64,000 nucleotides of DNA from IMG/VR virus record IMGVR_UViG_3300029842_000004. The stretch is one strand, 5' to 3'. Origin of the DNA: a virus (taxonomy: Duplodnaviria; Heunggongvirae; Uroviricota; Caudoviricetes). Under the pieces are notes generated by a model. It had not been told where the DNA came from and made no database searches. It saw nothing but the letters and a program-made list of their open reading frames with translations. Shown here in pieces: positions 6,013-51,970 of this stretch (position 1 is the first letter of the stretch; each line of letters opens with the position of its first letter). Made by a program: the position numbers and the translations under genes.

Positions 6013-6253
6013 ATTGTATAAAGAAATAGAAGAAGCAGAGGCCAGTCTGAATGCAAAAAGATTAAAGTACATCAAAGAAGCATTAGCAGAAAACAATGGA
6101 ATTATAAAGCTAAAATTTAAAGAGTTTAAAGAATTTAAAGAAACTAATGATGTATTTGACTTTGATGATCAGTTTCCAGTGATAATAGAAATTGATGGAA
6201 ATTCCATGTATTTAACGGAAGTGTATGTCAAAAAAAAAACGATTTTCGTGTAG
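5999..6253 (+). CDS. hypothetical protein (84 aa)
   Basis: ORF. In-frame A10 run near the 3' end. Confidence 0.5.
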   Translation: MVLNKLYKEIEEAEASLNAKRLKYIKEALAENNGIIKLKFKEFKEFKETNDVFDFDDQFPVIIEIDGNSMYLTEVYVKKKTIFV

Positions 6254-11876: not shown

Positions 11877-12254
11877 AATCAACAGTATATGCTCATCTTG
11901 AGAATGATTATAGATTTTATAGACTTCCTCTATTTAGAGCTACGGCTGTAAAATACGGATGGAATAATCCTATAGGGGAAGATAGTGGGAGAGAGAAAAA
12001 AATATAATTCACAGTATTAAGTAGATATATTATGAGCACAAGTAAAGAATACAAGGCGGTAAGAAACTGCATACTAAATGAACTTCACCTTACCAAATAA
12101 GATATAATCAAAAACATAGAACCATTATTGGAAAAGCTTGTAAAAAGGTGCATGCATAATACATACGGAGGAAACAATCAGATAGAAAATTGGATCAGAT
12201 GTATGGTAAATGACGAACTTAAACAAAAAGAAGGCTATGGTTTTGTAAGGAAAA

Positions 12255-12872
12255 TATGTGGGGGGGGTTATAAAAGATCATGTGTTGAATGAGTTGAACA
12301 TAATTGTAAGACCAAAAAATGAAAGATGCGTATGTGAAAATAGAGTACCATCAAGAAAAGATGGTTTGTATCTAATCTACGGAAACGGACACGCTGAGCC
12401 GTTTGCTGGAGAGAATTTCAAAAAGAATGTGCGTTATATCGGATTAAAGCACAAAGACGTATCGTTTGCTATCTCACTGACGGAGCATGATAGCGTACAA
12501 TTGCTTGACGATGATAGCCGTGAAAAATCCGGAAGTGAGACATATTACGAACGTAAATGTGATGCGCTGTTTGACATTGACGGACGCGGCAATACGGAAC
12601 GCCTTGTGGCCAGAAATCCAAAGTTGAAAAATTTGCTGAAAGATGGCGAGTATATACCATCTCTTGGTCAATTAAATTTAATGGCCCATTATATGGACGA
12701 ACTAAACAAAGCATTCGCTTATGTTTCGGCATCTCCCCTCTCCTCGACGTGGTATAGATCCAGTACCGAGAGCAGCCCGAGCGTCGCGTGGTACGTGGAC
12801 TTCTCCATTGGTAGCGCGTACTACAGTAACAAGTACAACAGTAGCAGGGTTCGGGCGGTAATTGATTTTTAA
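12255..12872 (+). CDS. hypothetical protein (about 205 aa) with a G8 tract in codons 2-4
   Basis: ATG at 12255 in frame with track ORF 12258..12872. ATG GTG GGG GGG GTT. GC-rich codon island near the 3' end. Confidence 0.55.
   Translation, partial: YVGGVIKDHVLNELNIIVRPKNERCVCENRVPSRKDGLYLIYGNGHAEPFAGENFKKNVRYIGLKHKDVSFAISLTEHDSVQLLDDDSREKSGSETYYERKCDALFDIDGRGNTERLVARNPKLKNLLKDGEYIPSLGQLNLMAHYMDELNKAFAYVSASPLSSTWYRSSTESSPSVAWYVDFSIGSAYYSNKYNSSRVRAVIDF
12260..12267 (+). repeat. poly-G (G8) homopolymer at the 5' end of a CDS
   Basis: Read directly. G/C runs this long are rare in this AT-rich window. Confidence 0.9.
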
Positions 12873-21998: not shown

Positions 21999-22051
21999 GA
22001 CGCGAATTACCTATCTTTGTGCTATTATTCATCAAAAAAAAATATAAGCAC

Positions 22052-22330: not shown

Positions 22331-23426
22331 GATAGATATAAGAAGGATATTCAAAACCTCCAAACAGGTTATGGAAGAGGCGTATGAGAATATCTTAAAA
22401 TACAGGCGGGGAGAGCTTATCCCCGCTAAAACCGGATACGATTATATTGATGAGGCTTTGCTTGGAGGTATTTTCCCTCAGCATGCTATTGCCATAGGGG
22501 CTCGGCCATCTGTGGGTAAATCGTATGTGGCCCAAAAGATATTGGAAAATGTGATGAATCCGATGATCAACCCACAAGCAGAAGATTATTTTCTTGTCAA
22601 TTGCGAGTTCGAAATGAATCCTCAAGATCTTCTTCTTCGCAGAATGAGTCAGGATATGAAAAAACGGGCTCCTGAAATATTAAGAAGGCAAGATTCTAAT
22701 ACAGTAGAAGAGATAAGGATGTTTGAAATCCTTCAAGGTGAAATCAGAAATAATATAATATACATCGACGCTCCGTGTACGGTAAAAGAGTTTGAGGCGG
22801 CTGTGTATCATATAGCTACCAAACACAAAGACAAACGTCTTATAATATTTAAAGTCGATCATATTGCTTTGATAAAAAGAATGGGATTAGATCCTAAGTC
22901 GGCTATAGATGATTTGGTGGCGGTTATGAACGAAGCTAAATTAGTATATAAAAACATATTTTTCCTCATCATATCCCAATTCAACAGAGAGATAGAAGGA
23001 AGGATAAAAAGCCCTCAAGAGCAGCCTCCCCGTCTTTCTGACTTTTATCAGTCTGATACGCTGGGGCAACTATGTACGTTAATGATAGGTTTGCATAATC
23101 CTCGCAGATACGGGCTGGACAAGTATATGATATTTGGGAAAGACTGGTATCAGACTCTTGATAGGTTTAAAACTGAAAACAAAACATCATTCAGGACAGC
23201 CGGACTGGTGTTTCATCATATACTGAAGGTAAGGCAAGTTAGTATGGAAGAGCTTACTAATACAATCCACCCAGAGATACTGCCGGGACATGAATGGATG
23301 TACGGGGAGGGCGGGACGAAGTTCGTGAACCCCAACCAGCCGCCGACGCCGCCTAAGCTCTATACTGTGGAAGACGTTACGGACAATCAGGAACAAGAGA
23401 CAAAAGAAGAACAGTCATTGTATTAA
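22299..23426 (+). CDS. DnaB-like replicative helicase (RecA-fold C-terminal domain)
   Basis: GYDYIDEALLGGIFPQHAIAIGARPSVGKSYVA matches the DnaB H1/Walker A region. IIFKVDHIALI Walker B-like. Confidence 0.75.
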   Translation: MTKMHEEIANRIDIRRIFKTSKQVMEEAYENILKYRRGELIPAKTGYDYIDEALLGGIFPQHAIAIGARPSVGKSYVAQKILENVMNPMINPQAEDYFLVNCEFEMNPQDLLLRRMSQDMKKRAPEILRRQDSNTVEEIRMFEILQGEIRNNIIYIDAPCTVKEFEAAVYHIATKHKDKRLIIFKVDHIALIKRMGLDPKSAIDDLVAVMNEAKLVYKNIFFLIISQFNREIEGRIKSPQEQPPRLSDFYQSDTLGQLCTLMIGLHNPRRYGLDKYMIFGKDWYQTLDRFKTENKTSFRTAGLVFHHILKVRQVSMEELTNTIHPEILPGHEWMYGEGGTKFVNPNQPPTPPKLYTVEDVTDNQEQETKEEQSLY

Positions 23427-23441
23427 AAAAAAATAAGAACC

Positions 23442-25722: not shown

Positions 25723-27168
25723 ATGACAACAATCATATACGTGTCAGCTATCTTAGCTGTAGTGATTATTTTGACAATCATCGGAGTCTTATCAAGGTAT
25801 CGTAGATGTAAGCCTAATCAGGTCTTGGTCGTTTATGGTAAGACAGGTGGGGAAAAGAAATCGGCGAAATTATATCATGGTGGAGCGGCATTTGTCTTGC
25901 CTATTATTCAAAGCTATGATGTTTTGTCAATGGAGCCTATGCAAATAGATTGCAAGCTTACCGGTGCTTTGTCATCTCAGAATATTAGAGTAGATGTTCC
26001 TACGACTATTACAGTAGCTATCAGTACAAATCCAGAGATCATGCAAAATGCGGCAGAAAGACTTTTGGGAATGGATACCGAATCTACTGAAAATCTTATT
26101 ACGGACATCGTTTACGGTCAGATGCGTTTGATTATTGCTGAAATGACAATCGAAAAACTTAATTCTGACAGGGATGAGTTTTTGGATAAGGCAAGAAAGA
26201 ACATTGATAACGAGCTTAACAAGTTAGGTCTTTACCTCCTGAACATCAACATCAGTGACATTAGAGACGAAGCCGGTTATATTATGAACCTTGGTAAGGA
26301 GGCTGAAAGTAGGGCTCTGAACGAAGCACAGGCTAATATCGAAGAACAGGAGAAGCTGGGGGCTATTAAGATTGCTGTACAGCAGAAGGAGAAAGAAACG
26401 GCTGTGGCTAATACCAAAAAAGAACAAGAGATTCAAATTGCTTGTACTGAAAAAGAAAAGGAAACAATAGTAGCTGAAACGAAGAAAGAAAAAGAAGTAG
26501 CTTTGGCTTTAACCGATAAAGAAAAACAGATCGGTGTAGCTCAAGCCGATAGAGATAGGGCTGCGGCTATAGCAAAGACTTTGGCTGACAAGGAATCAGC
26601 GATTGCAAGATCTAAGGCGGAACTTGAAGTAAACAAAGCTGAAGCCGAAAGAATGGAAGAAGCTAAGGCTAAGAAAGTTCAGGCTGCGCTTAAGGCTGAA
26701 AAGATTGTGCCGGCTGAAACCCAGAAGGAAGAGGCTATCTTGCAAGCTGATGCCGAGGCCGAGAAGATCAAACGCCAGGCTGAGGCTGAGGCATCAGCAC
26801 ATTTGGCAAAAGCTGAGGCAGAGGCAAAAGCTATTCAGATGAAGCTGGAGGCAGAAGCCGAAGGTAAGAAAAAGTCGTTAATGGCAGAAGCCGACGGATT
26901 TAAGGCTATGGTGGAAGCAGCAGAATCCAATCCTCAGATCGCCATCCAGTACAAGATGGTTAATCAGTGGAAAGAAATTGCTGGAGAACAGGTTAAAGCA
27001 TTTGAGCACATTAATCTCGGAAATATCACGGTATTTGACGGCGGTCAGAACAGTACCGGTAATTTCCTTAACAATGTTGTCAAGACCGTCGCTCCGGCAT
27101 TGGGAGTCATTGATCAGCTTCCGATTGCAGATACTTTAAAGAAATTAAAAGGAGATGACAAAAAATAA
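25723..27168 (+). CDS. flotillin-like SPFH/band-7 protein (YqiK/FloT-like), 481 aa
   Basis: N-terminal TM anchor. SPFH core (LVVYGKTGG...QIDCKLTGALSSQNIRVDVPTTITV...IIAEMTIEKLNSDRDEF). Long Ala/Glu/Lys-rich flotillin coiled-coil repeats. C-terminal conserved tail. Confidence 0.8.
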   Translation: MTTIIYVSAILAVVIILTIIGVLSRYRRCKPNQVLVVYGKTGGEKKSAKLYHGGAAFVLPIIQSYDVLSMEPMQIDCKLTGALSSQNIRVDVPTTITVAISTNPEIMQNAAERLLGMDTESTENLITDIVYGQMRLIIAEMTIEKLNSDRDEFLDKARKNIDNELNKLGLYLLNINISDIRDEAGYIMNLGKEAESRALNEAQANIEEQEKLGAIKIAVQQKEKETAVANTKKEQEIQIACTEKEKETIVAETKKEKEVALALTDKEKQIGVAQADRDRAAAIAKTLADKESAIARSKAELEVNKAEAERMEEAKAKKVQAALKAEKIVPAETQKEEAILQADAEAEKIKRQAEAEASAHLAKAEAEAKAIQMKLEAEAEGKKKSLMAEADGFKAMVEAAESNPQIAIQYKMVNQWKEIAGEQVKAFEHINLGNITVFDGGQNSTGNFLNNVVKTVAPALGVIDQLPIADTLKKLKGDDKK

Positions 27169-34848: not shown

Positions 34849-35034
34849 ATGAAGTATTTTATTTTATTGATGACATTAGTATTATCATCATGTTCAAATA
34901 ATCATCAGGTTAATGACGGATGGGTTATATATGATCTACGTCCTTTACAGGGTGGACTATTGAAGGGAAGGGTATTGTTACATCAAATAACTGCTGGTGC
35001 CAAGGTGATGTTTCGGATGCATTTAAGGATCTGA
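34849..35034 (+). CDS. putative lipoprotein (signal peptide plus lipobox LSSC), possibly frameshifted into the downstream frame (to about 35154)
   Basis: MKYFILLMTLVLSSCSNN. An adjacent frame continues open for about 66 codons to 35154. Confidence 0.45.
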   Translation: MKYFILLMTLVLSSCSNNHQVNDGWVIYDLRPLQGGLLKGRVLLHQITAGAKVMFRMHLRI

Positions 35035-35208
35035 TGCCTGATAATGCTACTTGGGCTACGAAGGAGGAATTTGACAAAGCCCCTGTAGTAGGATATATTA
35101 TAGAAGGTGTTGGTTTGGTTTTAACAGATAGGACAGGTCATGAAATTAATGCTTAGGAACTTATTTCATATTCCTCTTAGAATAGTTGAAAGAAAATTAA
35201 CTAATGGG

Positions 35209-35270
35209 GAATTGACATATTCTCATAGCTAAAGCAAGCGGGATTCTTGGATACAAACGTATGAAACCTT
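35209..35270 (-). pseudogene. remnant of a paralogous gene 3' end (YPRIPLALAMRICQFPIS*), one copy of a 48-bp imperfect repeat
   Basis: 35209-35257 matches 44297-44345 (about 43 of 48 nt), which encodes the C-terminus HPRIPFALAMGVCQTGNCII of the 44279..45004 gene. Confidence 0.45.
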
Positions 35271-35346
35271 AGTATTTTGTTGCAAGAAAAGATGGTAATT
35301 ATAACAATCCCCAGCCATACAATAGGTGTACGGTTGGGGATTGTTG

Positions 35347-36000
35347 TCATATCGTAAAATTAAGTGTTTTTTCTAATATTAGATATTCAGTATGAATTTT
35401 ACTTCCGCCATCATCTATCAAGTCCAAATTAATATAAGCCGTATATGATACATGATGATCACCAGGAGTGAGACGCTTCATTTCTGATAAGAACATAGAA
35501 TTTAAACCTTGGCCAGACCATGATTCTGGATATGGCAAAGGTGTAAAGTCGGCATCTGTACATTTTATAGCCCAAGTAAGATTAGGATCTGCCCTAACTA
35601 TTCTATCATGAGGTCCATCAATTACAAGATCTGGCATCTCATATTGGTAACTATCATAATTAAGGACAATAGGATCACCAAAGTTTATACAGTATATAGC
35701 AGCAGGTGGAGTAAGGCTTGTTATTAAAAAGGTTCTATAAATCCTATTGGTTGTTCTTAGCGTAAACTCATCAGGTGCTATCACACTTACTCTAAATCCA
35801 TAATAAGGAGAGGTTTCTAAAGCAATAGCAAGAACCACCGAATCCTGTTCAAGCAATTCCTTTATCGTATCAACTTGACTATCGATCTCTTGCCTATCTT
35901 CTATTGGAACACCTCCTCGAATATACACAGTATCCAACCTTTTTTTTAGAAGATTGGTATATAAGCTCACCACCATCAGGGATGGTTCCGATAAGTTCAT
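35347..36000 (-). CDS. hypothetical protein (217 aa)
   Basis: ORF. First gene of the minus-strand block at the convergent junction. Poly-G9 lies 13 nt upstream of its ATG. Confidence 0.6.
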   Translation of the reverse strand: MNLSEPSLMVVSLYTNLLKKRLDTVYIRGGVPIEDRQEIDSQVDTIKELLEQDSVVLAIALETSPYYGFRVSVIAPDEFTLRTTNRIYRTFLITSLTPPAAIYCINFGDPIVLNYDSYQYEMPDLVIDGPHDRIVRADPNLTWAIKCTDADFTPLPYPESWSGQGLNSMFLSEMKRLTPGDHHVSYTAYINLDLIDDGGSKIHTEYLILEKTLNFTI

Positions 36001-36013
36001 TGTTTACATAACA

Positions 36014-36022
36014 CCCCCCCCC
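36014..36022 (-). repeat. poly-G (G9 on the coding strand) in the 5' leader of 35347..36000
   Basis: C9 on plus strand. Minus-strand context gtataGGGGGGGGGtgttatgtaaacaATG. Confidence 0.9.
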
Positions 36023-36089
36023 TATACAGTTACTAACTATTTTATACTCATATAGTTTAGCATTATTTTCAAATCTTCTTCTCATAATT

Positions 36090-36800
36090 TCATAAAATTA
36101 ATTCAGTAAAAGGACGGACATAATGATAACTACCCCTTGAACCTGTATCCAAATGATCTCCTTGGATGTTTATATCATAATACCACGAATAGGAAAATTT
36201 TGTATTTCGAGTGGATGTCCACATTCTATTACTCATTATCGTACCTCCTACCATTAAAAGGCATTCGTTTATTTCATTCGCATACAATGATATCAAAAAA
36301 AACTCTCCGGCGCCACCTACATATCCATTTTGACCATTTTTAAATAAATAGCTATTAGCTTTATTAAAAGCGTAATCTGTATTACTGGTATCATATTCAA
36401 GATACGCATTCTGATTTTCACGCCCCCAATAATCCTTTTTAATAGTTCCCATATGAGAACTATCTTGTGCAAATATATTGTCTATTTGTCCATCCTTACC
36501 CCAACGAAATGTGCCAATATATTCGGTGGCTATAACAAAACACACTTTATCTACAAGAGCTATTCCATTGCATAGATCATTGGAATATCCTTTATTAGAC
36601 CAATTTTCTTTTGTATATAATCCTCCATCTACATGTTGGATGTATATGCCTTTATTGATTATAAGCGAGGGATTTACCCCCCCCCCATCCCTATTCGAAA
36701 TCTTCGTCTCATGATTTTTTGTTTGCAAGATAGCAATAATTGACAACATAAAAGAAACCGGTTCCCTATCATCTCTGACTGAGAACCGGTAAGAAAACAA
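36090..36800 (-). CDS. hypothetical protein with N-terminal hydrophobic anchor (236 aa), containing an in-frame poly-G10
   Basis: N-terminal FMLSIIAILQ. The G10 tract encodes DGGGV about 40 codons into the ORF. Confidence 0.55.
   Translation of the reverse strand: MFSYRFSVRDDREPVSFMLSIIAILQTKNHETKISNRDGGGVNPSLIINKGIYIQHVDGGLYTKENWSNKGYSNDLCNGIALVDKVCFVIATEYIGTFRWGKDGQIDNIFAQDSSHMGTIKKDYWGRENQNAYLEYDTSNTDYAFNKANSYLFKNGQNGYVGGAGEFFLISLYANEINECLLMVGGTIMSNRMWTSTRNTKFSYSWYYDINIQGDHLDTGSRGSYHYVRPFTELIL
36677..36686 (-). repeat. poly-G (G10 on the coding strand) inside the CDS
   Basis: C10 on plus strand, read directly. Confidence 0.9.
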
Positions 36801-36926
36801 TTTCAGAAAAAATTAAACCTACATAACCTTAAAGTAAGAACAAAAAAACGTATAGTCTACTCTTTGACAATGCTAAGATAACATATCTGGCTCACATCAA
36901 AGTAATGTAAGCTCGATATTCTTCGT

Positions 36927-39900
36927 CTATTTGTAGCTTGTATCCTCATCACCTTCCGAATCAGGAGTGGCGCCGATGAAGAACATCATTGACTTGTTGT
37001 TCGTCTGCTGCCACCAATTATAGGCGCGCGCTACGTCTTCCGGCGTCTTGATATTATACCATTGTTTGATAAACGTCTGTTTGGCGAGTTGCCTAAATAA
37101 CTTAGACTCTCCCTTGTATGTACCGGATGTTACTTTATCAAGTGAATAATTCCTAAGATCGGTAAGATCCTTCAGTTTTCGCCCCATAACAAACGGATCG
37201 TTAATGATATCTACCACGTTAAGCTCCATAATAAACGGCATCTGTGAAGCTATTTCGTTTATGGTTCTGAATCCGACATAGGATCCAAATTGAGTAAGCC
37301 AACTTTCTTCGTTTTCATCATCATCACGCCATCCGGCAAGAAGCATAGATACGGCCTGCATGATAAGGAACGTGCCGGCATAGACACTGAGACGTTTGAG
37401 ATTGGTTTTTTCTACCTCATTCATATTGTCTTTATTTTCATTCCAGACATCTATGATGTTTTTCATACCAGACTCGGAAGCCAGGCTAAATGCTTTGGCT
37501 ATCATATTCTTTAACGTAATTGACAACCCTTCCTCTTCTTGCATTGTCTGGAAATTGAAGCCACGTCTTTTCCACAGACGTTGAGCTGCCAGCACCAGCC
37601 AGCCTCGGTGGGCGGTCATGAACCTGGCTATCCAGTTGCGCGATGCGGCAGTTCGATTTTCTTCATTCAAAAATCCGTTACATATCTGCGACAAACTACG
37701 AACTTGATTTCTGGTTATAGCCATCTGGGTTTCAACTTCCTCAACAGTAACACCCGATCCCGGCTTTACAACCACCTTTCCATCCACGACGTCTACCATA
37801 CTCCATAAAGTACGATCTTTTAATGCGTTCCATTCTCTTTTTATGGTACTCTGTTCTTTATTTCGTTCTTTTTCCATCTTGAAATCTTGGAACGTGTAGA
37901 ACCGGCCTTTGTAATAACGAACATTGTCCATAGTAGCAATCATAACCTGCGGATCAAGAGGGTAGTTCAGGATTTCCATAAAAGCATACATAGGCGAATG
38001 CATTAAGGTCCTGGCCGCTCTATTGTATCCGGCACCATACATACGATTTCGGATATTGAATATCCCCATTCTCTCACCTATGACATATAATTTACTTTTT
38101 CTATCTATGTCTCCGGTTTCTGCTATACAAGATGGCGCAAGACGTGAAAACTCAGCCGATGCGTATTTAAGGGAATCTTTGCTTATATACTGTCCTACGG
38201 CAGATTCCATGATGAGGTTGATGTGGCCGGTAAGGGCGCCGGTAGCTGCCACAAACGGAGACAGTGCCAAGTTCATGACCGACATAAACCTTTCAACAGC
38301 CATCATAATTCTTGTAAGGTCTACCGTATATCCTCCGATGTTCACCGTAAGTTTTTTGGTGTTCATCCTAATGCCATAATAATGATCGTTGAAGAAGTCC
38401 CTAAACATCTGATATGCTTGGGTTGCTTCAGCCTTCTTACCGCCCTCAAATTGTTTGTTCAGCAACATCTGCTCCAGTCCTTGGGCAAGCTCTATAGACT
38501 TCTGCTTTTCGTTGTATAACGATGACTGCATCATAAGCATCGAATAAGAGTAGCCAAAATCGTGAGATACATCATCTTGGTTCTCCAATTCATATATGTA
38601 GTATTTAGGTATAGACCTAAGCCTGTCTTCAGGATCATATACTTCCCCCTGTCTGGTTTTACCGTATAGAGAATCGTCTACTCTGTCCAGGCACAGATCT
38701 GATACAAAATTACGAACCGTATTTTTGAAGTTAATACCCAATCCTTCTACACGTTCTATGTCTTGTTTTGATATCTGTGGAATAGCATATAGGTTCGGGC
38801 TCTGCTCTTTGTATAGATCAAGTGATTGTCTTTTTATTTCCTTGAGTTTTTGAATCATATTCCACTGCTCTACGTTTTTAGTAGCAACTTCATTACCGTC
38901 AGCATCATACTTGATACCAAAGTCATTGAAATACGATTCATCACGATACAGGCTTTTCTTAGGCATGCGATGACCATACCCATGATCTTTTACATAATCG
39001 GGATTACGGCCGCTATTTTCGGCTTCAGATTCAGCCACCCATGCCCTTGCAGGATCGAAAGACAGGTACGATATGTCCATGCCATAATCTTGGGTGGATG
39101 TACCGTTTTGTACGTCCTTAACCATCTGCGCCACATCTATCTCACCTCGACCTATTTTGTCGATCATGGCCGCATATCCGGTAGGCGCCATGCGTTTATA
39201 GTACGAAAAGACCTGGCTCCTGGCAAATTCATTAACAATAGCATTGGCCTCTTCTATGCCCTCTTCTCTTGTATTATTTAAAAACAAGCTGGCCATCTTA
39301 GCATTAACAGCATTCCTGAAATCTCTACCGTCTAATTCTTTGCTTATACCAAGCTTTTCTGACAGGTAGTTGGTTTCAGATACGGTAAACAGATATCGGT
39401 TATCAGCAGCCTTAAACAGCTTATCCCTTAAAGCCTGAATCCTTTTTGCTTTCTTCGCCGTAGTATGACGTTGTACGAACTTCCATTCCACTTCCTTGGA
39501 GTCAGCAAGAGCATTTAAATAAGACTGATTTACTTCGTTTTCGGCCTTACTGCTTTTAGTAAGGTACTTATCAATATCTTCAAGACCCACCATCTTAGCA
39601 TAATCTATTAAGATAGCGTAATCAGCTTCAATAGCTTCAGATGCGGCCCTAAAAGCATCTCTTTCAGATGAGGTAAATGTCGCTTCGTTAATTTCTCCGA
39701 TATCAGCCACATCTCGGTTGTTTCCGATTATTTCCTTGATAATGGCCTTATTTTTTTCTATATCTTTCACAATCGAATCCACGTCAGTCGCATCTCTATC
39801 ACTTGTCGTAGAACTAATGATATCATGCGCCATTTTAAGATACGAAGCCTTGTTATTTGATTCGGTACGCGCCGACTGTTCCGATTCTACTTCATTCCAA

Positions 39901-44278: not shown

Positions 44279-45004
44279 TTAAATTATGCAATTACCAGTT
44301 TGACATACTCCCATAGCTAAAGCAAATGGGATTCTTGGATGCAAATTACCCCAATCGATTCTTTTTATCTTACGACCTAATTTAAGCCGTTCTAAAGCCT
44401 GTTCGAATGTCATGCCACGACGAGGCAGTTTGAGATACTTTTTAAGTCTGTCGGCGGCTTCATTTGGTGTATGGCCATCGTATTCGAAAGCGGTTTCTCT
44501 TTCAGGAACATCAAACAAATCCCAGTATTTGCTTTCATAGTGATTAGATACCTGACCGGTAGGTAGGATCGCCATCACAATAAACCAATCATCAGAACCG
44601 AAGCATTTTTCTCCGTCGCTGTGTCTCCTTGATTTACAAACTTCAACCTGTCCGTTTCTGGCTAATAGATTAAAGAAGGCGGCGTTATACAACATGCGAT
44701 ACCGATACAATTCATTGAAAGTATGGTATCCATCAGAAACTTCTCCCACGTCTACAGGCTTCTTGTTTTGAATACTACCCAAAATCTTCTCTACATAGAG
44801 CTGTATTTTATACAGACCCATTTCGGTGTGGCCGTATTTGTTCAAGATATTATTGACATCGTATTGTATATTAAAATCTTTTTCAAATTCTACTTCAGGA
44901 TGATTAGGATAGAAGTAATCTACTGATGCTTCTAACACTGACTTTACGTGTTCTATTATCCTCGCAACATCATCACGTTTAAAAAAAATGCTTAAATCTT
45001 TCAA
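44279..45004 (-). CDS. hypothetical protein (241 aa), weak DUF2829-like motif at the C-terminus
   Basis: C-terminal MTFEQALERLKLGRKIKRIDWGN resembles the DUF2829 N-terminal helix (MxFxEALxxLKxGKKxxRxxW). This part is truncated. Confidence 0.6.
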   Translation of the reverse strand: MKDLSIFFKRDDVARIIEHVKSVLEASVDYFYPNHPEVEFEKDFNIQYDVNNILNKYGHTEMGLYKIQLYVEKILGSIQNKKPVDVGEVSDGYHTFNELYRYRMLYNAAFFNLLARNGQVEVCKSRRHSDGEKCFGSDDWFIVMAILPTGQVSNHYESKYWDLFDVPERETAFEYDGHTPNEAADRLKKYLKLPRRGMTFEQALERLKLGRKIKRIDWGNLHPRIPFALAMGVCQTGNCII

Positions 45005-47437: not shown

Positions 47438-47861
47438 TTATTTCAAACGTTCTACAATTAACTTCTTTAAATCTTCGAATGAATCAGTAAGGTCATTCAC
47501 CTTATTTTCTATACCAGCTATTTTACGATCCTGCTCTCTCGTTTGTTTGAATGCCGGATTGATGTCTTCTAATATAGATTCACAAGCCTCTATCTTGGCA
47601 CGATGGGCATCTACGCTGTTTATTATGTCTTGACTGGTGTTTTTTTATAGCATTCAGTTCGTTCATAATCGGATCTATGCTGGTAGATAATGTTATGCCC
47701 ATAGCCTTAGCCACATTCTGGGATTCCGGGACCGTATAGGTCTTGGTTTCGCCAGTGAGCTCTACCGTCAGATCCACCACGCGGGTCTGCATCTCCCTCA
47801 TTTCCAACTGACAGAATTTGTCGTTGATCATAACGGTTTGGGCGTCAAGTTTCGCAGACAA
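47438..47861 (-). pseudogene. ORF split by a frameshift at an A7 run (plus-strand T7, 47640-47646): 93-aa ORF plus about 66 codons open in the Bro-N frame
   Basis: Reading A7 as A6 joins ...NELNAIKK to TSQDIINSVDAHRAKIEACESILEDINPAFKQTREQDRKIAGIENKVNDLTDSFEDLKKLIVERLK*. Confidence 0.4.
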
Positions 47862-48376
47862 GATATTGAATTGGCTTGTGGCTTCTCTGCCTCTGCCTGC
47901 GACTTTTCGGCTATAGCTTTTTGAGCAGCTTCATATTGATCAGCCCAGGCTCTTGCTGCATCTGCCGGATTAGAAAAGTCAGGGACCAAAATTCCCTTTC
48001 CACCGGAACTTGTTTTATATTCTCCTGTTTTACGAATAGAAGGAAGAACCTCAGATGTTACCCATTTCTTAAATCTCTTAGCAGACTCTAATTTTGAAGA
48101 TAATATAAGAGAATATAAACCAGATTCATTAATTATTCTTATACTATCTATATATCTAGTTTTCAATATAGATCGTTTTACGCCCCATTGATTATCAGAT
48201 ACTTGAAAAAGCATAGAATCATCATCATCTACATGTCTTTTTACCGCATCTTTAGCATTTATATATCCAAGAGATTTAGCCACATCTGACGCCACAAACC
48301 AAACATCTCCTTTTGGATCTACAATAATTCTAAGCTCTCCAAAATCCGAACTTTCAAAAACAGAAACTTTATCCAT
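47828..48376 (-). CDS. Bro-N domain protein (phage antirepressor/BRO family), 182 aa
   Basis: FESSDFGELRII.DPKGDVWFVASDVAKSLGY...ESGLYSLILSSKLESAKRFKKWVTSEVLPSIRKTGEY matches the Bro-N consensus. Confidence 0.85.
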   Translation of the reverse strand: MDKVSVFESSDFGELRIIVDPKGDVWFVASDVAKSLGYINAKDAVKRHVDDDDSMLFQVSDNQWGVKRSILKTRYIDSIRIINESGLYSLILSSKLESAKRFKKWVTSEVLPSIRKTGEYKTSSGGKGILVPDFSNPADAARAWADQYEAAQKAIAEKSQAEAEKPQANSISCLRNLTPKPL

Positions 48377-51387: not shown

Positions 51388-51970
51388 TTATGAAACTTCT
51401 ATTTCATAATGCGAGGCCTCTGTTTCAACTATCAATCTTCCCTCTCCTTCGAACTCAACACTGTCATTTCCCGGACCAGTAACAAAAGGGAAATCAGATA
51501 CGGATGTTACATAATCTCCAGAACCACCAGAAAAAGACTGACTTTTACTTTGTTTGTAATTGATAGTCAATTGTGTTTTACCTGGCTGAAGAGTTCCAGA
51601 TAAATTTTTAGTATAAGTGGTGGTAGTCGTAATATTCCCATTTTTATAGCAATACATTATAAAAGTAGTAACCGGACTCTTTTTAATATTACTATCTGGA
51701 CCTTCATGATAAGATTCATTTCCTCCAAATATGCTACTAATATGACAATAAGGACCAACTCTTTTATTTGAAGTTTTAGCCTTATTCTCTACTCCCTTCA
51801 AAGATATAGTAACCTTGCTCTTGTATTCAATATCCCTCCAGTTGCAAACTCCTTCACTTACGTTTCCAACAAATCTGTCATCAACATAAACCTCTATATC
51901 CCCCCCCCTGCTGATTGGTCTTCAACTGGTAAGAAACAAGACTTGAGGTATCTTCGTATCTCCTTCTCAT
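51388..51970 (-). pseudogene. gene interrupted by a poly-G9 tract: ATG 51970 ORF stops shortly after the tract; G8 (or G11) would give about 193 aa continuous with the 137-aa ORF 51388..51801
   Basis: Manual translation. ATG AGA AGG...CAG CAG GGG GGG GGA TAT AGA GGT TTA TGT TGA with G9. With G8 the frame runs into MKGVENKAKT... The track ORF begins at TTG. Confidence 0.5.
51900..51908 (-). repeat. poly-G (G9 on the coding strand) at the gene-interrupting position
   Basis: C9 on plus strand, read directly. Confidence 0.9.

What the first reader, a model, noticed from the sequence alone, without database searches (positions are those of the whole stretch)
36660..36700. In-frame G10 tract near the N-terminus of a membrane-anchored late-block protein
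The G10 tract encodes DGGGV about 40 codons into ORF 36090..36800. A single-unit slip truncates the protein after its N-terminal anchor. This is the textbook arrangement of phase-variable surface or adsorption-related genes, and is unusual for a phage. It sits next to the G9 leader tract, so two contingency tracts lie within 700 bp.
Basis: partly seen in the sequence, partly recalled or inferred. Interest (0 to 1): 0.7.

Follow-up and report, generated by a model that had tools for sequence, protein, structure and literature searches.

The report
Hypervariable poly-G switch in phage lectin gene
A run of ten G's sits at the start of a small sugar-binding-type (lectin-like) gene of a human-gut phage; its length differs between otherwise near-identical phage genomes and shifts the reading frame, and in this genome it leaves the gene switched off.

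Summary
The G10 tract is real: it is C10 on the + strand at 36677-36686. It is far from chance. The window has four G/C runs of 8-10 nt and no run of 6-7.

Comparison with 158 related gut-phage loci and with distant homologs puts the true start at ATG 36712 (MRRRF...), 8 codons before the tract. The claimed "N-terminal anchor" overlies a terminator-like hairpin and is not conserved. From the true start, G10 reads MRRRFRIGMGGG*, so the gene is OFF. G5, G8 or G11 would be ON.

Relatives carry G4 (7), G5 (116), G6 (20), G8 (4), G9 (7) or G10 (this window only). These changes are scattered over the tree and occur between identical flanks. A 99.92%-identical contig differs by indels only at this tract and the neighbouring one.

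The product is a confidently modelled C-type-lectin-like (Lcl_C/DUF1566) adhesin domain. It is closest to a Bacteroides fimbrial protein and to the ends of phage tail-fibre proteins.

The "G9 leader" is codons 22-24 of the next gene, whose tract is G8-G10 in most of its 79 copies. The closest precedent is the poly-G receptor-binding genes of Campylobacter phages. I rate this a new member of a known kind. Reversible switching within one population was not shown.

The parts
36677..36686 (-). G10 homopolymer (C10 on + strand): the flagged tract. It covers the third base of codon 9 (an ATG) and codons 10-12 of gene c, within a Gly linker.
   Evidence: Relatives carry G4, G5, G6, G8 or G9 here.
36710..36712 (-). 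Conserved start codon of gene c (ATG, MRRRF...).
   Evidence: This ATG is in frame with the lectin domain in 93 of 117 loci in the first survey. It stays in frame in A6/G5 genomes, where the upstream frame is broken. It is the annotated start of WOZ57324.1 in phage csAssE-Sib. Distant homologs start MRRRF, MRRRY or MKYLRKF. The motif occurs 3 times in the window against 0.02 expected.
36090..36712 (-). Gene c as conserved in relatives: MRRRF head, Gly linker carrying the G tract, then a 194-aa lectin-like domain (36093-36674; stop codon 36090-36092). In this window the frame is broken at the tract (MRRRFRIGMGGG*).
   Evidence: AF2 model pLDDT 94.4. Fold matches.
36715..36720 (-). A6 tract just upstream of the start codon. 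It is A5 to A8 in relatives.
36757..36790 (-).
   Evidence: dG -19.6, z -3.38. The sequence is conserved in relatives, including a G-to-A change that turns a G-U pair into an A-U pair.
36295..36302 (-). Mid-gene T8 tract (A8 on + strand). This is a second frameshift hot spot of gene c.
   Evidence: T7 or T9 in 20 of 100 relatives. It is the sole lesion in 21 of 67 broken copies.
35347..36085 (-). Gene b (MRRRFENNAKLYEYKIVSNCIGGG...). It starts 5 nt after gene c ends. Here it is broken at the A8 tract, so it appears as a 63-aa ORF plus a 217-aa ORF.
36014..36022 (-).
   Evidence: In 79 loci with this cassette the run is G8 (15), G9 (30), G10 (25), G7 (4), G6 (2), G5 (1) or G12 (1).
35940..35947 (-). 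A8 tract (T8 on + strand) that frameshifts gene b in this genome. Relatives have AAAAAAC, which is in frame.
   Evidence: P0020 reads ...IYQSSKKRLDTVYIRGG.
51388..51970 (-). Gene a (MRRRYED...). It starts 2 nt after the 2135-aa virion gene ends. Its G9 tract at 51900-51908 puts it out of frame (29-aa product).
   Evidence: All 14 relatives have G5 and an intact 192-aa ORF.
12032..12872 (+). Gene d, a distant paralog of gene c (Lcl_C-like), on the other strand. It is broken by the G8 tract at 12260-12267 and by an in-frame TAA at 12098-12100.

Best explanation
Gene c encodes a small accessory protein of about 205 aa in a roughly 150-kb human-gut phage. The lineage is distantly related to Cellulophaga phi4:1-like phages, so the host is probably a member of Bacteroidota.

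The protein has three parts: a short conserved basic head (MRRRF...), a glycine linker, and a C-type-lectin-like (Lcl_C/DUF1566) ligand-binding domain. Domains of this kind form Bacteroides fimbrial proteins and the ends of proteins named tail fibre in other phages. I infer that the protein is a virion-associated adhesin or auxiliary receptor-binding protein.

The G run lies in the glycine-linker codons, where GGG codes for Gly. It gains and loses G's by slipped-strand mispairing during phage DNA replication. From the conserved ATG at 36712, lengths of G5, G8 and G11 are in frame (ON). G4, G6, G7, G9 and G10 terminate within a few codons (OFF).

This genome is in an OFF phase, with a 12-aa product. 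A gain of one G or a loss of two would restore the gene.

The same arrangement recurs in two other late genes with an MRRR[FY] head and in one paralog. The phage population is therefore a mixture of particles with different sets of these accessory proteins.

Shown here: tract length variation, its frame consequences, the true start, and the fold. Inferred: the slippage mechanism, virion association, and that switching is reversible and adaptive.
For: True start:
- It is the annotated start in csAssE-Sib.
- Homologs at 30-40% identity begin MRRRF, MRRRY or MKYLRKF, often followed by a Gly-rich linker.
- The ATG-AGR-MGR-AGR-TWY motif occurs exactly 3 times in 64 kb against 0.02 expected. Each copy is followed by a long G run within 9-24 codons.
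- A terminator-like hairpin lies upstream of this ATG.

OFF state: translation from 36712 gives MRRRFRIGMGGG*.

Hypervariability:
- Across 159 loci the tract is G5 (116), G6 (20), G4 (7), G9 (6, plus 1 pure G9), G8 (4) or G10 (1).
- On a neighbour-joining tree of flanks, 26 non-G5 tips require 26 independent changes, the same as for shuffled labels. G4, G5, G6, G8 and G9 occur with flanks identical or 0.08% different over about 1.2 kb.
- Contig L152 is 99.92% identical to the window over 8.66 kb. Its only two indels are one G in this tract (G9 vs G10) and one G in gene b's tract (G8 vs G9).

Not sequencing noise:
- A5, A6 and A7 runs in gene c and in the adjacent 2140-aa gene are invariant (0/22 to 0/100).
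- OFF lengths occur in assemblies at 490x coverage.
- Lengths differ by up to 6 nt.

Fold:
- AF2 pLDDT 94.4, pTM 0.90.
- BFVD TM-scores of 0.81-0.88 to crAss-like phage proteins and to a protein named tail fibre.

Functional, not junk:
- 663 homologs share a conserved core.
- Amino-acid variation among close relatives clusters at residues 51-80, 146-162 and 176-184.

System level:
- Gene b's tract is G8 (15), G9 (30) or G10 (25) across 79 loci, with ON and OFF forms about equally common.
- Gene a (G5 to G9) and gene d (GGGGAGG to G8) are also expanded and out of frame in this window.
Against: - 73% of relatives carry only G5, which is not normally a hypermutable length. G8 or longer at this site is rare (about 8%).
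- No read-level data were available, so reversible high-frequency switching within one population is not shown.
- Gene c evolves almost neutrally among close relatives: pN/pS about 0.9, against 0.069 in the adjacent 2140-aa gene.
- Gene c is broken in 67 of 140 complete copies. 21 of these breaks are at a mid-gene T8 and 13 are other lesions.
- Gene d in this window also carries a nonsense codon. These observations fit simple loss of dispensable genes as well.
- With A6 plus G10, an upstream ATG (36749) is in frame and could in principle still give a 219-aa product.
- Virion association is inferred only from gene position and from the fold's occurrence in fibre proteins.
- Pfam's Lcl_C model does not hit gene c itself.
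Confidence: 0.58

Rival explanations
1. Relaxed selection or decay. Gene c and its paralogs are dispensable accessory genes that are being lost. Homopolymers are simply the most mutable sites, so they collect the inactivating indels. Once a copy is broken, the run drifts longer. There is no maintained, reversible, adaptive switch.
For: - pN/pS is about 0.9 for gene c against 0.069 for the neighbouring gene.
- 48% of complete copies are broken, many at the mid-gene T8 or by deletions.
- All four tract-bearing genes are broken in this window. Gene d also has a nonsense codon, and gene b is broken at an A8 tract rather than at its G tract.
- G5 is the majority state.
Against: - Run lengths in the genome are bimodal (5 or less, or 8 and more). 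All four long runs sit in the 5' part of their genes: three in the first 9-24 codons, and gene d's about 77 codons into a 279-codon gene.
- Gene b keeps a G8-G10 run in most of its 79 copies, with ON and OFF forms about equally common, plus 'locked-ON' interrupted alleles.
- The 5' G5 site varies about 8 times more often than a mid-gene G5 in the same gene (about 27% against 3.5%). A frameshift at either site would kill the gene.
- Amino-acid changes cluster in loops instead of being spread evenly.
- The family is large and its core is conserved.
Confidence: 0.25
2. The 236-aa ORF from TTG 36800, or the 219-aa version from ATG 36749, is the real protein. G10 is then the in-frame ON state, and the N-terminal hydrophobic stretch anchors the protein in a membrane.
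For: - The ORF is open in this window.
- One relative type, A6/G4 (P0006, L026), is also open in this frame.
- Gene callers often choose such alternative-frame starts (P0001, P0026).
Against: - The upstream frame is broken in A6/G5 genomes (7), in A5/G4 genomes and in the alternative upstream allele.
- It overlies a terminator-like hairpin plus U tail.
- The hydrophobic stretch has only about 8 residues and no charged n-region.
- Distant homologs conserve the MRRRF/MKYLRKF head, not this extension.
- The near-identical contig L152 has A6/G9, which is closed in every frame.
Confidence: 0.08
3. Sequencing or assembly artefact. The long G runs and their length differences are homopolymer errors, not biology.
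For: - G runs of 8 or more are error-prone on most platforms.
- The window and L152 differ by exactly one base in each of two runs, which could be consensus error.
- No read data were available.
Against: - The same site shows G4 to G10 in independent collections: GenBank, IMG/VR, ENA and Logan.
- Variants include assemblies at 150-490x coverage.
- Differences reach 5-6 nt.
- A5-A7 control runs never vary.
- Interrupted alleles (G7AGG, G5AG4, GGGAG) and base changes accompany the length changes.
Confidence: 0.03
4. Expression by slippage at the RNA or ribosome level. The G10 genotype is still expressed because RNA polymerase stutters on the run, or the ribosome shifts on it, so some product is in frame. 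The tract would then set the expression level instead of acting as an on/off switch. This is not exclusive with the best explanation.
For: - All MRRR-head genes are out of frame at the DNA level in this genome, yet they keep intact downstream ORFs.
- Transcriptional slippage on long homopolymers is established for A/T runs of about 9 or more in bacteria (general knowledge).
Against: - DNA-level length variation is directly observed and is sufficient to explain the pattern.
- G5 relatives need no recoding.
- No stimulatory structure or slippery heptamer was found.
- Slippage on G runs is less documented than on A/T runs.
Confidence: 0.06

Closest known systems
Hypermutable polyG tracts in receptor-binding-protein genes of Campylobacter Fletchervirus phages (Sorensen et al. 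2021, Cell Rep 35:109214; cited in PMC12823448, PMC10877375 and PMC11959909)
   Same: Several G runs per phage genome lie inside genes for host-recognition-type proteins. Length changes shift the frame and create subpopulations. [quoted passage not shown] PMC10877375 adds that such phages encode up to four receptor-binding proteins.
   Different: This is a different phage lineage (about 150 kb, human gut, related to Cellulophaga phi4:1-like phages), with a probable Bacteroidota host. The protein family is different: DUF1566/C-type-lectin-like with an MRRR head. At this particular site most genomes carry a short G5. No experimental switching or phenotype data exist here.
Simple-sequence-repeat contingency loci of bacteria (Campylobacter, Haemophilus and Neisseria polyG/polyC phase-variable surface genes)
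   Same: A homopolymer of 8 nt or more lies near the 5' end of a surface or ligand-binding gene. There are several loci per genome, and ON/OFF is set by frameshift through slipped-strand mispairing.
   Different: The genome here is viral. Switching would act between phage generations. Reversibility and rates were not measured.
Lcl_C / DUF1566 C-type-lectin-like domains, including Bacteroides fimbrial protein BACOVA_04982 (PDB 4eps), the Legionella Lcl C-terminal domain (8q4e), and the DGR target proteins of Bacteroides phages (PMC8143477)
   Different: In Bacteroides phages such domains are diversified by DGR mutagenesis of a variable repeat. Here no template-repeat copy of the gene exists in the 64-kb window, and diversity comes from on/off frameshifts plus cassette exchange. 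Pfam's Lcl_C model does not reach its threshold on gene c.

Membership tests
SSR-mediated phase-variable (contingency) locus | A homopolymer long enough to be slippage-prone (about 7-8 nt or more) within or just upstream of a coding region | tested here: met
   G10 at 36677-36686, at codons 9-12 from ATG 36712.
SSR-mediated phase-variable (contingency) locus | Tract length varies among closely related genomes much faster than the surrounding sequence | tested here: met
   G4 to G10 across 159 loci. 26 independent changes are needed on the tree. G4, G5, G6, G8 and G9 occur on flanks that are identical or 0.08% different. L152 differs from the window only at the tracts as far as indels go.
SSR-mediated phase-variable (contingency) locus | Length changes switch translation of the gene between in-frame and out-of-frame | tested here: met
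   G5, G8 and G11 are in frame with the conserved ATG. G4, G6, G9 and G10 terminate within a few codons.
SSR-mediated phase-variable (contingency) locus | Reversible, high-frequency switching within a clonal population | not testable with these tools
   No read-level or experimental data. Only assembled consensus sequences were available.
SSR-mediated phase-variable (contingency) locus | The long tract is maintained by selection at the locus across the lineage | tested here: inconclusive
   At gene c, 73% of loci have G5 and only about 8% have G8 or longer. At neighbouring gene b, a run of 8 or more is present in 71 of 79 copies.
Fletchervirus-type phage polyG receptor-binding-protein variation | The tract-bearing genes encode virion receptor-binding proteins | tested here: inconclusive
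   The fold is lectin/adhesin type and is found in proteins named tail fibre. The gene lies in the structural block after a PHROG 'virion structural protein'. There is no direct evidence that the product is in the virion.
Fletchervirus-type phage polyG receptor-binding-protein variation | Several polyG tracts per phage genome | tested here: met
   Four G/C runs of 8-10 nt lie in 64 kb. All four sit in the 5' part of a gene: three within the first 9-24 codons, and gene d's about 77 codons in.
Fletchervirus-type phage polyG receptor-binding-protein variation | Homology to the Campylobacter phages or their receptor-binding proteins | tested here: not met
   At DNA level the only phage record hit is csAssE-Sib. 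At protein level the relatives are Cellulophaga phages. No Campylobacter phage appears among the matches.
Lcl_C / DUF1566 (C-type-lectin-like) domain family | Pfam PF07603 hit above the gathering score | tested here: not met
   Gene c has no Pfam hit. Paralog gene d scores 24 bits against a cut-off of 34.9. More distant homologs P0061 and P0064 do pass, at 42 and 41 bits.
Lcl_C / DUF1566 (C-type-lectin-like) domain family | Structural similarity to solved Lcl_C or CLec domains | tested here: met
DGR (diversity-generating retroelement) target gene | A template repeat matching the 3' variable region, plus a nearby reverse transcriptase | tested here: not met
   blastn (word size 7) of genes a-d against the whole window finds only self matches. 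No reverse transcriptase was seen among the proteins scanned. The rest of the roughly 150-kb genome is outside the window.

The most novel reading that the evidence does not exclude
A widespread human-gut phage lineage with a probable Bacteroidota host carries a modular repertoire of accessory adhesin genes. The genes share a short MRRR[FY] head and sit directly behind giant virion-protein genes. Each is gated by its own hypermutable homopolymer (G8-G12, A8 or T8). Virion populations would therefore be combinatorial mixtures of adhesin sets. This would be an SSR-based alternative to the DGR system that other Bacteroides phages apply to the same lectin fold. It would also be the first phage phase-variation system outside the Campylobacter phages.
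Probability: 0.4. Interest if true: 0.7.

Novelty: new member of a known kind. Interest (0 to 1): 0.55.

Why it matters
A 2025 review describes phase variation encoded by the phage itself, as opposed to its host, as an "exceptional case", known from Campylobacter Fletchervirus phages (PMC11959909). My literature searches found no report of it for gut Bacteroides-type phages.

If the tracts here are working switches, a common human-gut phage lineage hedges its bets on which lectin-like adhesins it displays. That bears on three questions: how gut phages persist alongside hosts with phase-variable capsules, how host range is read from metagenomes, and how genes are called. Automatic callers mis-start or split these genes in about half of the assemblies.

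The system is also directly testable. Over 150 public assemblies already carry the locus in different states.

Tried and rejected
- Pfam and PHROGs on the 236-aa ORF gave no hit. The fold was resolved only after a library-wide HMMER search and an AF2 model.
- I tested whether the lectin domain's fusion to 2300-2400-aa proteins in other phages links it to the upstream 2140-aa gene. P0057 is not homologous to that gene, so the 'Rosetta stone' argument was dropped.
- The AF2 model of gene b failed (pLDDT 38, shallow alignment). Gene b's fold remains unknown, and no fold search was run on it.
- An exact-protein look-up of the window's 217-aa ORF found nothing on record. A neighbouring gene was used instead and led to the near-identical contig L152.
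- A fusion of the 63-aa and 217-aa ORFs by a shift in the G9 tract was rejected. Both alternative frames hit stops just after the tract. The real junction is the A8 tract.
- A -1 ribosomal frameshift on A_AAA_AAG in gene b was considered. It leads to the wrong frame, so it was rejected (reading sequence).
- The sigma-70 promoter and simple terminator scan found nothing useful near the gene. The hairpin was found by folding. Bacteroidota promoters are not covered by the scan.
- Rfam gave nothing near its gathering scores in 35000-37200.
- A DGR template repeat was not found in the window.
- A literature search for 'csAssE-Sib' found no paper.
Full report
**1. The observation**

The + strand carries C10 at 36677-36686, which is G10 on the minus strand. 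It lies in the mechanical ORF 36090..36800(-), 236 aa with a TTG start, and that frame reads ...SNRDGGGVNPS....

The window is 37.8% G+C. C runs number 5 at length 5, none at lengths 6-8, then two C9 and one C10. G runs number 4 at length 5, then one G8.

An 8-mer of G (either strand) matches 8 times against 0.65 expected from dinucleotide-preserving shuffles. None of 100 shuffles reached 8.

The tract is therefore real, at the stated place, and not chance. It belongs to a set of four:

| Tract | Coordinates |
|---|---|
| G8 | 12260-12267 (+) |
| G9 | 36014-36022 (-) |
| G10 | 36677-36686 (-) |
| G9 | 51900-51908 (-) |

**2. What genome this is**

The only phage record similar at DNA level is OR575929.1, 'phage csAssE-Sib' (151 kb, human gut). 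It is 95-96% identical around the locus.

An 851-aa late protein is 99% identical to csAssE-Sib and 27% identical to structural proteins of Cellulophaga phages phi4:1 and phi17:2. I infer a Bacteroidota host.

The flagged gene follows a 2140-aa protein that matches a PHROG 'virion structural protein'.

**3. The gene model**

In csAssE-Sib the tract is G5, an A6 further upstream is A5, and the annotated CDS starts ATG AGA CGA AGA TTT, giving MRRRF.

Scans of IMG/VR (115 loci), of ENA/JGI metagenome contigs (43 loci) and a few exact look-ups gave 159 loci carrying this ATG and the tract.

Evidence that ATG 36712 is the true start:
- In the first survey the MRRRF ATG is in frame with the downstream domain in 93 of 117 loci. 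A different upstream allele also lacks that frame.
- Homologs at only 30-40% identity begin MRRRF, MRRRY or, most often, MKYLRKF. This head is often followed by a glycine-rich linker before the globular domain.
This looks like the terminator of the 2140-aa gene.
- The 'anchor' is about 8 hydrophobic residues.

I conclude that the gene starts at ATG 36712. From there G10 reads MRRRFRIGMGGG-stop.

The tract is 'in frame' in this window only because A6 (+1) and G10 (+5 relative to G5) together open a non-conserved upstream frame.

**4. Is the tract hypervariable?**

Lengths at the site across the 159 loci:

| Tract | Loci |
|---|---|
| G5 | 116 |
| G6 | 20 |
| G4 | 7 |
| G9 | 6, plus one pure-G9 allele lacking the ATG |
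| G8 | 4 |
| G10 | 1 (this window) |
| Interrupted or substituted forms | 4 |

Evidence that changes are frequent and independent:
- On a neighbour-joining tree of about 1.2 kb of flanking sequence, the 26 non-G5 tips need 26 changes. Randomly shuffled labels need the same number.
- G5, G6 and G8 occur on identical flanks, and G4 on flanks that differ by 0.08% (L099, L037, L089 and L057). G9 also occurs on flanks identical to G5 genomes (L034).
- Contig L152 is 99.92% identical to the window over 8.66 kb. It differs by five substitutions and two single-G indels. One indel is in this tract (G9 vs G10) and the other is in the neighbouring tract (G8 vs G9).

Controls:
- A5, A6 and A7 runs in gene c and in the 2140-aa gene never vary (0/22 to 0/100).
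- A second G5 in mid-gene varies in 4 of 114 loci.
- A mid-gene T8 varies in 20 of 100 loci.
- Out-of-frame lengths occur in assemblies with 150-490x coverage.

Assembly error therefore does not explain the pattern.

**5. Frame consequences**

G5, G8 and G11 are ON. G6 and G9 are closed in every frame, because a TAG lies just upstream in that frame. G4 and G10 are OFF from the conserved start.

Of 140 complete copies, 73 are intact and 67 are broken. The causes are the G tract (33), the T8 alone (21) and other lesions (13).

**6. What the protein is**

A library-wide HMMER search found 663 homologs. The roughly 190-aa domain occurs in two settings: stand-alone proteins of 200-235 aa, and the C-terminus of proteins of 600-2400 aa.

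- AF2 on an alignment of 35 sequences gave pLDDT 94.4 and pTM 0.90.
- In BFVD the best matches (TM 0.81-0.88) are proteins of crAss-like phages, a 1417-aa protein named tail fibre, and DUF1566 proteins.
- Pfam's Lcl_C model misses gene c itself but weakly hits its paralog gene d.

Virion association remains an inference.

**7. Selection**

Among close relatives, pN/pS of gene c is about 0.9. The last 1.2 kb of the adjacent 2140-aa gene gives 0.069. Synonymous divergence is also lower in gene c than in its neighbour, which suggests cassette exchange.

Amino-acid variation clusters at residues 51-80, 146-162 and 176-184 of the domain. This fits diversifying selection on binding loops. It does not exclude relaxed selection.

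**8. The neighbouring tract and the wider system**

The 'G9 leader' is codons 22-24 of gene b, which starts MRRRFEN at 36085, 5 nt after gene c ends.

- In relatives gene b is one 245-aa ORF.
- Across 79 loci its run is G8 (15), G9 (30), G10 (25), G7 (4), G6 (2), G5 (1) or G12 (1). G10 is ON. G9 and G8 are OFF. Interrupted in-frame alleles also exist.
- In this window's allele, G9 is in frame but an A8 tract at 35940-35947 breaks the gene. Relatives have AAAAAAC there.
- The same slot holds at least three different cassettes, all beginning MRRR[FY]xN. Two of the three lack a G run.

Gene a (MRRRYED, 2 nt after the 2135-aa gene) is G5 and intact in all 14 relatives. Here it is G9 and yields 29 aa.

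Gene d is a lectin-like paralog on the other strand. Relatives have GGGGAGG. Here it has G8 plus a nonsense codon.

The MRRR[FY] start motif occurs exactly three times in the window against 0.02 expected. Each copy lies upstream of a long G run, and each is out of frame here.

**9. Mechanism**

The best reading is slipped-strand mispairing in a G run that encodes a glycine linker. This toggles translation of a lectin-like accessory adhesin, and this genome is in an OFF phase.

The main rival is neutral loss of dispensable genes, with homopolymers acting as mutational hot spots.

Evidence against the rival:
- The bimodal run-length spectrum.
- The placement of all four long runs in the 5' part of their genes.
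- Persistence of a long run in gene b across the lineage.
- Roughly eight-fold higher variability of the 5' G5 than of the mid-gene G5.

Evidence for the rival:
- The near-neutral pN/pS.
- The many other lesions.
- The double hit in gene d.

Reversibility and phenotype cannot be tested with assemblies alone.

**10. Comparison and novelty**

The closest known system is the set of hypermutable polyG tracts in receptor-binding genes of Campylobacter Fletchervirus phages (Sorensen 2021, as cited in PMC12823448, PMC10877375 and PMC11959909). A 2025 review calls that system an exceptional case.

The fold is the one that DGRs diversify in Bacteroides phages (PMC8143477). No template repeat is present in this window.

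I found no report of polyG variation in gut Bacteroides-type phages.

Verdict: a new member of a known kind. The ORF start, the anchor, the ON state and the 'leader' tract were mis-read.

Noticed in passing
window 12032-12872 (+): Gene d is a lectin-like paralog of the flagged gene, lying among early/middle genes. It is broken twice here. An in-frame TAA at 12098-12100 replaces the GAA found in relatives. A G8 tract at 12260-12267 replaces GGGGAGG. In 8 relatives it is one 279-aa ORF starting MSTSKEYK.
   Followed up: partly
window 51388-51970 (-): Gene a (MRRRYED...) starts 2 nt after the stop of the 2135-aa virion gene, which suggests translational coupling. Its G9 at 51900-51908 shifts the frame. 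All 14 relatives have G5 and an intact 192-aa protein of unknown fold.
   Followed up: partly
window 35347-36085 (-); loci L002-L197: The slot after the flagged gene holds at least three exchangeable cassettes, all starting MRRR[FY]xN. One carries a G8-G12 run (79 loci). Two lack it (40 and 9 loci; one has GGC GGA at the same place). This looks like a shared N-terminal docking module with swappable bodies.
   Followed up: partly
window 36295-36302: The mid-gene T8 of the flagged gene (A8 on the + strand) is T7 or T9 in about 20% of relatives. It alone accounts for 21 of 67 broken copies, making it a second frameshift hot spot in the same gene.
   Followed up: yes
window 36090-38129: There is a sharp contrast in selection. 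pN/pS is about 0.9 in the lectin gene and 0.069 in the adjacent 2140-aa gene. The lectin gene also has lower synonymous divergence than its neighbour, which suggests recent cassette spread by recombination.
   Followed up: partly
L118 3470-3500: An 11-nt tandem duplication (GAAAATGATAT twice) frameshifts the gene in the gene-b slot of this relative. This is a different route to the same outcome.
   Followed up: no
homologs P0007, P0008, P0014, P0017, P0018, P0021, P0025: Many database homologs of the lectin gene carry different internal in-frame deletions of 40-80 residues. They could be real deletion variants or assembly chimeras.
   Followed up: no
window 25723-27168 (+): A 481-aa phage protein has SPFH/Band 7 and flotillin domains (Pfam E 5e-26 and 2e-9), which is unusual cargo for a phage. 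Nearby are a Bro-N protein (47828-48376) and a WDGH-domain protein (44279-45004).
   Followed up: no
window 6230-6239, 22034-22042, 23425-23433, 105-113, 302-310: These are long A/T runs (A10, A9, A9, T9, T9). I did not examine their position relative to genes or their variability in relatives.
   Followed up: no
window 36715-36720 and relatives: The A run immediately upstream of the MRRRF start codon varies from A5 to A8. In another allele it is A8-A9 and abuts the ATG. It could tune translation initiation in a host that lacks Shine-Dalgarno pairing.
   Followed up: partly
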